Positions 1,262 through 1,277 of a stretch of 28,011 nt of DNA are shown one piece after another (position 1 is the stretch's first letter; every line of letters starts with the position of its first letter). The translations under genes and the position numbers were made by a program. The DNA comes from Actinomycetota bacterium (GTDB lineage Bacteria; Actinomycetota; UBA4738; HRBIN12), in NCBI GenBank assembly GCA_035287005.1, contig DATECH010000126.1, positions 1 through 28,011 on the forward strand. Direction: 5' to 3'. The notes under the pieces were generated by a model. That model saw nothing but the letters and a program-made list of their open reading frames with translations. It had not been told where the DNA came from and made no database searches.

Positions 1262-1277
1262 CCGAACTGTTGTTCGA
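1262..1277. promoter_or_regulatory. LexA (SOS) box upstream of mraZ
   Basis: CCGAAC-TGTT-GTTCGA: one mismatch to the actinobacterial consensus TCGAAC-N4-GTTCGA, with the CGAAC-N4-GTTCG core perfect. Intergenic, 12 nt upstream of the mraZ -35. Confidence 0.7.

What the first reader, a model, noticed from the sequence alone, without database searches (positions are those of the whole stretch)
1262..1277. LexA box at the mraZ/dcw promoter: possible direct SOS control of the division cluster
Seen in sequence: CCGAAC-TGTT-GTTCGA, with the same perfect CGAAC-N4-GTTCG core as the box at 13100, located 12 nt upstream of the mraZ -35. A rough estimate for a 10-bp core at 70% GC is only about 0.03 chance hits per 28 kb. 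Established: SOS division arrest usually works through dedicated inhibitors, and MraZ overproduction inhibits division in several bacteria; direct LexA control of mraZ is not a textbook regulon member. Inference: LexA may repress mraZ plus the small ORF (induction leading to division arrest), act as a roadblock to read-through from the HNH gene, or help activate dcw so that LexA cleavage shuts division genes off. The upstream position fits any of these.
Basis: partly seen in the sequence, partly recalled or inferred. Interest (0 to 1): 0.75.

Follow-up and report, generated by a model that had tools for sequence, protein, structure and literature searches.

The report
LexA box on mraZ division promoter
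A binding site of the type used by the DNA-damage repressor LexA sits just upstream of the promoter of the cell-division operon in this uncultured soil actinobacterium and about six related genera, so DNA damage is probably wired into division-gene control there, though whether it raises or lowers expression is unknown.

Summary
On the minus strand, TCGAAC-AACA-GTTCGG (1277->1262) lies 12 nt upstream of a conserved TTGACG -35. Downstream follow MraZ-type GTGG repeats and mraZ, whose real start is the GTG at 1188.

**LexA identity.** The same CGAAC-N4-GTTCG core marks recA, ruvC, a uvrD-like helicase, lexA/LysM-nrdR and the DUF6504-dnaE2 operon in this MAG. A full lexA gene is present.

**Conservation.**
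- The box is invariant, at a fixed distance from the promoter, in all 16 same-genus genomes that have an mraZ match. DNA further upstream is unalignable there.
- It occurs in 48 of 81 related promoters.
- One nested clade carries a canonical LexA box 11 bp closer to the -35.
- It was lost at least 3-4 times.
- It was not found in 19 other genera of the family, in 7 sister families, or in 30 other genomes of the phylum.

**Caveats.**
- The spacer is atypical, so the site scores low on a PSSM built from the genome's own SOS sites.
- It lies upstream of the core promoter rather than over it.
- Binding, the transcription start and the sign of regulation are all untested.
- The read-through roadblock idea is disfavoured.

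**Precedent.** LexA sites at mraZ have been reported in gut Firmicutes (with EMSA), and SOS boxes have been reported at the E. coli dcw 5' end. This scan had already noted the same feature on related soil-actinomycete DNA and in other phyla.

The parts
1262..1277 (-). LexA-type (SOS) box, TCGAAC-AACA-GTTCGG on the gene strand. The 5+5 core is perfect; the spacer is atypical.
   Evidence: The core is identical to those at recA, ruvC, uvrD, lexA and the imuA-like operon in the same genome. It is invariant in 17/17 genus promoters.
1250..1261 (-). 12-nt spacer between box and -35: length fixed, sequence variable
   Evidence: Length is 12 in 17/17 genus promoters, with pairwise identity of only 0.60. 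The distance is fixed in 62 of 63 distinct type-A promoters.
1244..1249 (-). -35 hexamer TTGACG of the mraZ (Pmra) promoter (inferred)
   Evidence: TTGAC is near-invariant across the order. The spacing to CATAAA is 17 nt. The consensus promoter scan did not call it, because the -10 lacks T at position 6.
1221..1229 (-). Extended -10, TG-G-CATAAA (inferred); it overlaps the second GTGG repeat
   Evidence: GTGGCATAAA is conserved in nearly all relatives. The transcription start is unmapped.
1204..1241 (-). MraZ-binding-repeat-like array: GTGGAG (1241-1236), GTGGCA (1230-1225) and GTGGAG (1209-1204). A fourth GTGG, seen between the last two in most relatives, is degenerate here.
   Evidence: Period of 10-11 bp. 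It matches the B. subtilis MBR GTGG[A/T]G repeats (bioRxiv 10.1101/2022.02.09.479790).
760..1188 (-). mraZ coding sequence (142 aa; GTG start at 1188 preceded by GGAGG)
   Evidence: Pfam MraZ, E = 4e-33. The start was chosen from the alignment of relatives.
616..747 (-). 43-aa single-helix membrane microprotein gene between mraZ and rsmH, the first gene downstream in the putative LexA-controlled unit
   Evidence: Earlier finding e1-5332440. Present in 76 of 81 related loci irrespective of the box. No Pfam family.
1333..1815 (-). HNH endonuclease gene upstream of the box, same strand
   Evidence: Pfam HNH_5/HNH. Syntenic in nearly all of 81 related loci, and inverted in L097 and L072.
13101..13114 (-). 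Reference canonical SOS box ahead of the DUF6504-...-dnaE2 operon
   Evidence: It is the top-scoring site of the genome's LexA PSSM.
18983..18996 (.). Third perfect core (spacer ACGG), inside a 279-aa ORF with no Pfam family; probably a chance match
   Evidence: It is a non-RNNY spacer, like the intragenic chance hits of G170.

Best explanation
The palindrome is a genuine, lineage-specific LexA operator added onto an older, MraZ-autoregulated promoter of the dcw operon head (mraZ, a 43-aa membrane protein, rsmH and onward). A LexA dimer bound about 55 bp upstream of the inferred transcription start most likely lowers promoter activity. RecA-stimulated LexA cleavage after DNA damage would then raise transcription of mraZ and the genes behind it, within the limits set by MraZ autorepression.

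The site looks tuned to sub-maximal affinity. The promoter-distal half is a consensus CGAACA, while the promoter-proximal half always deviates at one position.

Shown: the sequence, its match to the genome's SOS core, its conservation and its fixed geometry. Inferred: LexA binding, promoter and start-site positions, and above all the sign of regulation.
For: 1. The core CGAAC-N4-GTTCG is the organism's SOS core. It lies between the -35 and -10 of recA, at the start sites of ruvC, a leaderless uvrD-like gene and the DUF6504-dnaE2 operon, and three times between lexA and a LysM-nrdR pair. A complete LexA (HTH plus S24 peptidase) is encoded.

2. Phylogenetic footprint. In 17/17 same-genus promoters, which were not selected by the box, the 10 core bases are invariant. 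The 20 nt upstream have 0.34 pairwise identity and the 12-nt spacer 0.60.

3. Among 81 loci retrieved by MraZ similarity alone, 48 carry the box at -88 to -90 from the start codon. Twelve carry CGAACACATGTTC[A/T/C] 11 bp closer to the -35, and 21 have none. On a tree of the flanking proteins, the first type is ancestral to a clade of 72, the shifted type is one nested clade, and there are at least 3-4 losses.

4. The shifted sites have the canonical R-N-N-Y spacer of LexA operators. Genomes with the shifted box, and genomes with none, keep the same box at recA.

5. When the upstream HNH gene is inverted, the box stays with the mraZ promoter.

6. Precedents. mraZ is a predicted SOS gene in gut Firmicutes, with EMSA using B. 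subtilis LexA (PMC3998124). SOS boxes are reported in the 5' part of the E. coli dcw cluster (PMC3265435). From memory, unchecked: the B. subtilis recA operator also lies just upstream of the -35 and still represses.
Against: 1. With a PSSM built from the seven bona fide SOS sites of this genome, the mraZ site scores 10.8-13.9 bits against 20-29 for those sites, and ranks 79th to 149th. The cause is its spacer. The canonical sites here, and 17 of 24 perfect cores in a complete relative, have R at spacer position 1 and Y at position 4, whereas the mraZ site has A at position 4. The three other non-RNNY cores whose surroundings were read in that relative (L315, L317, L318) are intragenic.

2. 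Spacer positions 3-4 (CA) are conserved in 60-63 of 63 distinct promoters. This is more than LexA is known to require and hints at an extra constraint or partner.

3. All other SOS operators here overlap the core promoter or start site, while this one does not touch the -35. Simple occlusion is therefore not obvious, and the fixed distance and the ~one-turn shift would also suit a face-of-helix contact, including activation.

4. In C. glutamicum, mraZ mRNA fell after ciprofloxacin (PMC5055667). In S. venezuelae, 78 LexA-bound units go down after mitomycin C (PMC9380542).

5. MraZ autorepression would blunt any induction.
Confidence: 0.55

Rival explanations
1. LexA binds the box but acts positively, or as a phase-dependent partner of RNA polymerase or MraZ. 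LexA cleavage after DNA damage would then lower transcription of the dcw head (ftsL, ftsI and so on), and division would stop for lack of labile division proteins.
For: The box lies wholly upstream of the -35, unlike every canonical operator in the genome. Its distance to the -35 is fixed in 62/63 promoters, and the alternative position in one clade is 11 bp closer, about one helical turn. In S. venezuelae, 78 LexA-bound transcription units are down-regulated after mitomycin C (PMC9380542). C. glutamicum mraZ mRNA falls after ciprofloxacin (PMC5055667).
Against: LexA is a repressor in almost all studied cases. Centres of about -55.5 and -44.5 do not match the classical activator positions, although the start site is only inferred. 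The C. glutamicum effect has no known link to LexA. No direct data exist for this lineage.
Confidence: 0.2
2. The palindrome is the operator of a different dimeric regulator that happens to share the GAAC/GTTC half-sites, and LexA does not occupy it in vivo.
For: Non-LexA-like constraint on the spacer: CA at positions 3-4 and G after the box are nearly invariant. The PSSM score is poor. Other lineages carry unrelated palindromes at the same place upstream of the Pmra -35, such as TTACA-N5-TGTAA in family f8 and CAGATATCTG in genus g19. That position therefore accepts various regulators.
Against: The 10-base core and the N4 spacing are exactly LexA's. No second conserved site of the 'CA' spacer type was found: the other CAGTTCG-bearing site in G170 is intragenic, and the two in this MAG are intragenic or at a gene's 3' end, though their conservation was not tested. 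The replacement site in the nested clade has a canonical LexA spacer. The S. venezuelae ChIP-seq motif shows no spacer preference (tCGAAC-N4-GNNCGa; PMC9380542).
Confidence: 0.1
3. The palindrome acts on transcripts coming from the upstream HNH gene, either as a LexA roadblock or as a hairpin terminator, and not on Pmra.
For: It lies 55 nt after the HNH stop on the same strand, and an 8-bp hairpin can form. No other terminator-like site lies between HNH and mraZ.
Against: There is no U-run after the hairpin, and the folding z-score is -1.25. The sequence is invariant and shows no compensatory changes. The distance to the HNH stop varies freely while the distance to the -35 is fixed. In L097 and L072 the HNH gene is inverted and the box is retained next to Pmra.
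Confidence: 0.05
4. It is a chance match with no function.
For: About 5 of the 13 perfect cores in this MAG lie inside genes or at gene ends and look like chance. The mraZ site has the non-RNNY spacer typical of those.
Against: Invariance across 17 genus-level genomes and about six genera, at a fixed position, while the flanks are randomised.
Confidence: 0.02

Closest known systems
Actinobacterial / Gram-positive LexA operator (SOS or Cheo box, TCGAAC-N4-GTTCGA), as at M. tuberculosis and S. venezuelae recA/lexA
   Same: Identical 5+5 core and spacing. The same core is used at the canonical SOS genes of this genome, and a cognate LexA with an S24 domain is present.
   Different: The spacer is not R-N-N-Y. 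The site lies 12 nt upstream of the -35 and does not overlap the promoter. It scores low on the genome's own PSSM.
LexA site at mraZ homologues in the human gut microbiome (Cornish et al. 2014, PMC3998124)
   Same: A LexA-type box ahead of mraZ, proposed as a link between SOS and division. In that study it was bound by B. subtilis LexA in EMSA.
   Different: Firmicutes metagenome fragments, not Actinomycetota. That study gave no promoter geometry or phylogenetic history.
SOS boxes reported in the 5' region of the E. coli dcw cluster (as cited in PMC3265435)
   Same: LexA sites placed at the head of the division and cell-wall cluster.
   Different: A different LexA motif (CTGT-N8-ACAG type) and a different promoter set. 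I saw only a secondary citation.
MraZ-binding repeats of Pmra (B. subtilis GTGG[A/T]G x3; E. coli TGGGN x3)
   Same: The promoter here has three to four GTGG repeats at a 10-11 bp period, spanning the spacer, the -10 and the leader.
   Different: This is the older, order-wide part of the promoter. The LexA box is an addition found only in a subclade.
Dedicated SOS division inhibitors (ChiZ/Rv2719c, DivS, YneA, SidA, SosA)
   Same: They are the usual route from LexA to division arrest. This MAG has the typical actinobacterial arrangement: a small LysM protein divergent from lexA, with three boxes between them. A 43-aa membrane protein lies just behind mraZ.
   Different: The box here sits on the operon of the division genes themselves. 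The microprotein is also present in relatives without the box.

Membership tests
LexA operator (actinobacterial SOS box) | Palindrome TCGAAC-N4-GTTCGA with an intact GAAC/GTTC core | tested here: met
   TCGAAC-AACA-GTTCGG: 10/10 core bases and 15/16 of the full consensus.
LexA operator (actinobacterial SOS box) | The same motif marks the canonical SOS genes of the same genome, and a cleavable LexA is encoded | tested here: met
   recA, ruvC, uvrD-like, lexA (3 boxes) and DUF6504-dnaE2. LexA_DNA_bind plus Peptidase_S24 at C34:1951-2601.
LexA operator (actinobacterial SOS box) | Spacer preference of the lineage's bona fide operators (R at spacer position 1, Y at position 4; B. subtilis CGAACRNRYGTTYC, from memory) | tested here: not met
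   The spacer AACA has A at position 4. PSSM score 10.8-13.9 bits against 20-29, rank 79-149. 17/24 perfect cores in G170 are RNNY. The S. venezuelae ChIP motif has an uninformative N4, so the weight of this criterion is uncertain.
LexA operator (actinobacterial SOS box) | Overlaps the core promoter or transcription start of the regulated gene | tested here: not met
   The box ends 12 nt upstream of the inferred -35, with its centre at about -55.5. The other operators overlap the -35/-10 spacer or the start site. In the shifted clade it ends 2-3 nt from the -35.
LexA operator (actinobacterial SOS box) | Conserved in orthologous promoters against a diverged background | tested here: met
   17/17 genus promoters and 48+12 of 81 related loci. 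Found in genera g1, g12, g13, g20 and g24, and in g27 with one mismatch.
LexA operator (actinobacterial SOS box) | Bound by LexA in vitro or in vivo | not testable with these tools
   No binding assay or protein-DNA model is available.
SOS regulon member | Transcription changes on DNA damage in a LexA- and RecA-dependent way | not testable with these tools
   The organism is uncultured, and no expression data were available.
MraZ-autoregulated Pmra promoter | Three or more GTGG-type direct repeats at about 10 bp period in the mraZ promoter | tested here: met
   GTGGAG / GTGGCA / (GTGGGG in relatives) / GTGGAG, conserved across the order and phylum samples. The motif is as in B. subtilis.
SOS-induced small membrane division inhibitor (SidA/YneA/SosA type), for the 43-aa ORF | The gene is tied to a LexA operator across relatives | tested here: not met
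   The microprotein gene is present in 19/21 box-less loci as well as in 57/60 box-bearing ones.

The most novel reading that the evidence does not exclude
LexA at Pmra is not a plain occluding repressor. It would be a helical-phase-dependent partner of RNA polymerase or of the MraZ oligomer, held at deliberately sub-maximal affinity. The mraZ-microprotein-rsmH-ftsL head of the dcw operon would then form a second, transcription-level SOS division checkpoint alongside the ChiZ-like LysM protein. Similar wiring would have arisen independently in several phyla.
Probability: 0.2. Interest if true: 0.7.

Novelty: new member of a known kind. Interest (0 to 1): 0.45.

Why it matters
SOS-dependent division arrest is normally explained by dedicated inhibitor proteins. 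A conserved LexA operator on the promoter of the division operon itself would be a more direct route, and it sits next to MraZ's own operator. The evolutionary record here (gain, about one helical turn of repositioning, several losses, always one weakened half-site) gives concrete, testable predictions about affinity tuning and geometry.

The same link is reported for gut Firmicutes. It is also noted, unchecked, elsewhere in this scan for Alphaproteobacteria and other soil actinomycetes. Together these would suggest a recurrent solution that the model organisms do not show. The hosts are uncultured, so testing needs recombinant LexA and surrogate reporters.

Tried and rejected
- **Expression evidence.** The look-up of sequencing runs listed 24 holders, mostly soil and sediment metagenomes, and no RNA holder. 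No start site or damage response could be read, and read laying was not used.
- **Consensus promoter scan.** It called no promoter at 700-2100, because the -10 CATAAA lacks T at position 6. The promoter assignment rests on conservation only.
- **Terminator reading.** The hairpin is present, but there is no U-run and z = -1.25.
- **A promoter that would place the box inside a core promoter.** I looked on either strand and found none. Sequences upstream of the box are not conserved.
- **A LexA-like site upstream of the HNH gene.** None, even allowing one mismatch.
- **Co-occurrence of the box with the 43-aa microprotein.** None.
- **A second regulon of 'CA-spacer' sites.** The other examples lie inside genes or at a gene's 3' end.
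- **Composite pattern scan of 185,579 species genomes** (box + TTGAC + GTGGAG). Every mraZ-linked hit among the 80 loci returned belongs to this lineage, and the hits in other phyla are not next to mraZ.
- **Papers on B. subtilis operator mutagenesis** (PMC1277809, PMC107149) are not held. The spacer rule is quoted from memory.
- **C. glutamicum cg2381.** This LexA-regulon gene is numbered close to mraZ (cg2378) and is strongly induced by ciprofloxacin. I could not establish its relation to the HNH gene here.

Full report
**What is there.** The window is one whole contig (C126) of a 1.27-Mb, 53%-complete, 69% GC metagenome-assembled genome. Relatives found by MraZ similarity are all uncultured 'Actinomycetes/Actinomycetota bacterium' MAGs, many with soil-study isolate labels.

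All features near the finding lie on the minus strand. In order they are:
- an HNH endonuclease gene (1815->1333; Pfam HNH_5);
- a 55-nt gap;
- the palindrome TCGAAC-AACA-GTTCGG (1277->1262);
- 12 nt of spacer;
- TTGACG (1249-1244);
- 17 nt;
- CATAAA (1226-1221), preceded by TG-G;
- a leader with a GGAGG ribosome-binding site;
- mraZ, starting at the GTG at 1188 (Pfam MraZ, E = 4e-33).

GTGGAG, GTGGCA and GTGGAG repeats at a 10-11 bp period run from just after the -35 to the ribosome-binding site. Most relatives have a fourth, GTGGGG. They match the MraZ-binding repeats described for B. subtilis (GTGG[A/T]G; bioRxiv 10.1101/2022.02.09.479790). This is therefore the MraZ-autoregulated mra promoter. 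Behind mraZ lies the conserved 43-aa membrane protein gene reported earlier in this scan, followed by rsmH.

**Is it more than chance?** The core CGAAC-N4-GTTCG occurs three times in the window against 0.12 expected. It occurs 13 times in the MAG.

The genome-wide hits identify the motif:
- One lies exactly between the -35 and -10 of recA.
- One lies at the start of ruvC.
- One overlaps the ATG of an apparently leaderless uvrD-like helicase.
- Two, plus a one-mismatch third, lie between lexA and a divergent LysM-nrdR pair.
- One lies ahead of the DUF6504-dnaE2 operon (window 13101).

lexA encodes both the DNA-binding and the S24 peptidase domains. The core is therefore this organism's SOS box. 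About five further hits lie inside genes or at gene ends and look like chance, so a single-genome match is not enough on its own.

**Conservation.**
- *Genus.* All 16 same-genus genomes with an mraZ match carry the box 88-91 nt before the start codon. In the alignment, which also includes this MAG, the ten core bases, the -35, the GTGG repeats and the leader are invariant. The 20 nt upstream of the box have 0.34 pairwise identity, which is random, and the 12-nt spacer has 0.60 at a constant length.
- *Wider lineage.* Among 81 loci retrieved only by MraZ similarity (70-91% identity), 48 have this 'type A' box. Twelve have a 'type B' box, CGAACACATGTTC[A/T/C], 11 bp closer and ending 2-3 nt from the -35. 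Twenty-one have none.
- *Tree.* On a tree of HNH plus MraZ plus the downstream protein, type A is ancestral to a clade of 72 and type B forms one nested clade. There are at least 3-4 losses, and the outgroup clade has none (quick tree, so deep branches are only moderately supported).
- *By genus code within the family.* The box is in g1, g12, g13 (both types), g20, g24 and, with one mismatch, g27. It was not found in 19 other sampled genera.
- *Further out.* It was not found in the seven other families of the order. One of those data points, G023, is an unpublished genome. It was not found in 30 genomes of other orders of the phylum, all of which do show GTGG repeats.
- *Composite pattern scan.* A scan of the species-level genome collection for box + TTGAC + GTGGAG returned mraZ-linked hits only from this lineage.
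- *recA control.* Genomes with type B or with no box still have the standard box at recA. The differences at mraZ are therefore real regulatory turnover and not a changed LexA.

**What does not fit a textbook operator.**
1. *Position.* Every other SOS operator in this genome overlaps the core promoter or the start site. This one stops 12 nt short of the -35, with its centre at about -55.5 if transcription starts 7 nt after the -10.
2. *Spacer.* The seven bona fide sites here, and 17 of 24 perfect cores in a complete relative (G170 = OY969099.1; control pattern 4 hits), have a purine at spacer position 1 and a pyrimidine at position 4. The three other non-conforming cores whose surroundings I read in that genome (L315, L317, L318) are intragenic. 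The mraZ site has A at position 4. With a PSSM from the genome's own sites it scores only 10.8-13.9 bits against 20-29, ranking 79th-149th. Seven training sites overfit, and the S. venezuelae ChIP-seq motif (tCGAAC-N4-GNNCGa) shows no spacer preference (PMC9380542). I therefore read this as 'probably weaker', not 'not LexA'.
3. *Extra constraint.* Across 63 distinct type-A promoters the consensus is Y-CGAACA-n-CAGTTCG-GG. Only spacer position 2 is free, and the distance to the -35 is fixed in 62 of 63. In type B the spacer is canonical (A-C-R-T) but the last core base is never G.

In both types the promoter-distal half-site is perfect and the promoter-proximal half-site carries one deviation. 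The two positions differ by about one helical turn. I infer selection for a moderate-affinity site in a fixed rotational setting, but this is inference only.

**Mechanism.** The best-supported reading is that LexA binds here and modulates Pmra. I put LexA occupancy at about 0.8.

Repression, meaning derepression after damage, is the default for LexA. It is also what the Firmicutes precedent assumes (PMC3998124). From memory, the B. subtilis recA operator also sits just upstream of the -35. I could not check that, because the papers are not held.

Under repression, damage would give a pulse of mraZ, the microprotein and downstream genes, damped by MraZ autorepression. Excess MraZ inhibits division in B. 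subtilis by lowering FtsL.

The alternative is that LexA helps the promoter, so that damage shuts the division genes off. It fits several points:
- the upstream, phase-fixed geometry;
- the 78 LexA-bound but down-regulated units in S. venezuelae;
- the fall of mraZ mRNA after ciprofloxacin in C. glutamicum.

It runs against LexA's usual role, however.

The roadblock idea is weak. The distance to the HNH stop varies while the distance to the -35 does not. Two relatives have the HNH gene inverted with the box unchanged. The hairpin has no U-run.

**Novelty and context.** Direct LexA sites at mraZ have been predicted, and shown to bind in vitro, for human-gut Firmicutes (PMC3998124). SOS boxes are also said to lie in the 5' part of the E. 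coli dcw cluster (PMC3265435). I found no report for Actinomycetota, and the S. venezuelae LexA regulon paper mentions neither mraZ nor dcw.

Within this scan the same feature was already noted on a related soil-actinomycete promoter (e1-1466800, which shares sequence words with this one) and on other genomes, including Alphaproteobacteria. Those are unchecked notes, and my conservation analysis was done independently of them.

I therefore file this as a new member of a known kind. It is a lineage-specific recruitment of the mra promoter into the SOS network, with an unusual upstream, phase-fixed, apparently affinity-tuned operator.

Noticed in passing
L006 (G000:C34) 1586-2601: Classic actinobacterial SOS core locus. 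lexA (1951-2601, +) is divergent from an 89-aa LysM-domain gene followed by nrdR. Three LexA boxes lie in the 100-nt gap, the third with one mismatch and overlapping the inferred lexA -35. The LysM protein sits where ChiZ (Rv2719c) sits in M. tuberculosis, so this organism probably already has a dedicated SOS division inhibitor.
   Followed up: partly
L001 (G000:C1) about 2501-2530: The uvrD-like helicase appears leaderless. Its ATG lies inside the LexA box (TCGAACGC-ATG-TTCGA), 3 nt after a TACACT -10.
   Followed up: no
L245-L247, L256, L274 (family f8); L249-L253 (genus g19): Other lineages of the same order carry different conserved palindromes at the same spot just upstream of the Pmra -35: TTACA-N5-TGTAA(TTCGC) in family f8 and CAGATATCTG in genus g19. 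The position seems to be a docking place for lineage-specific regulators of the division operon.
   Followed up: no
L097 823-1350 and L072 (HNH region): In two relatives the HNH gene next to mraZ is inverted. The LexA box then lies in a divergent intergenic region, 63 nt from the HNH start in L097, and could control both genes there.
   Followed up: partly
window 1333-1815 and 81 related loci: The 160-aa HNH endonuclease is as conserved as MraZ (72-91% identity) and is almost always its upstream neighbour in this lineage. That is unusual for an HNH nuclease and suggests a housekeeping role.
   Followed up: no
window 18983-18996: A third perfect CGAAC-N4-GTTCG core (spacer ACGG) lies inside a 279-aa minus-strand ORF with no Pfam family, just upstream of the PASTA kinase gene. 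Probably chance; its conservation was not examined.
   Followed up: partly
L008 (G000:C61) 2330-2540: The recA operator and promoter lie about 150-190 nt upstream of the likely recA start (GTG after GGAAGGAGG). That leaves a long leader, or a short upstream ORF beginning at an ATG about 55 nt downstream of the box.
   Followed up: no
L125 (G035:C1:581232-582209): A second, diverged recA-like frame (52% identity) with two in-frame TGA codons, preceded by its own LexA box. It could be a pseudogene, an intein-bearing copy or a paralogue.
   Followed up: no
L034/L038 (G001:C6:73347-73773): mraZ of one same-genus genome is split into two overlapping frames, from a frameshift or an assembly error, while its promoter and LexA box are intact.
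   Followed up: no
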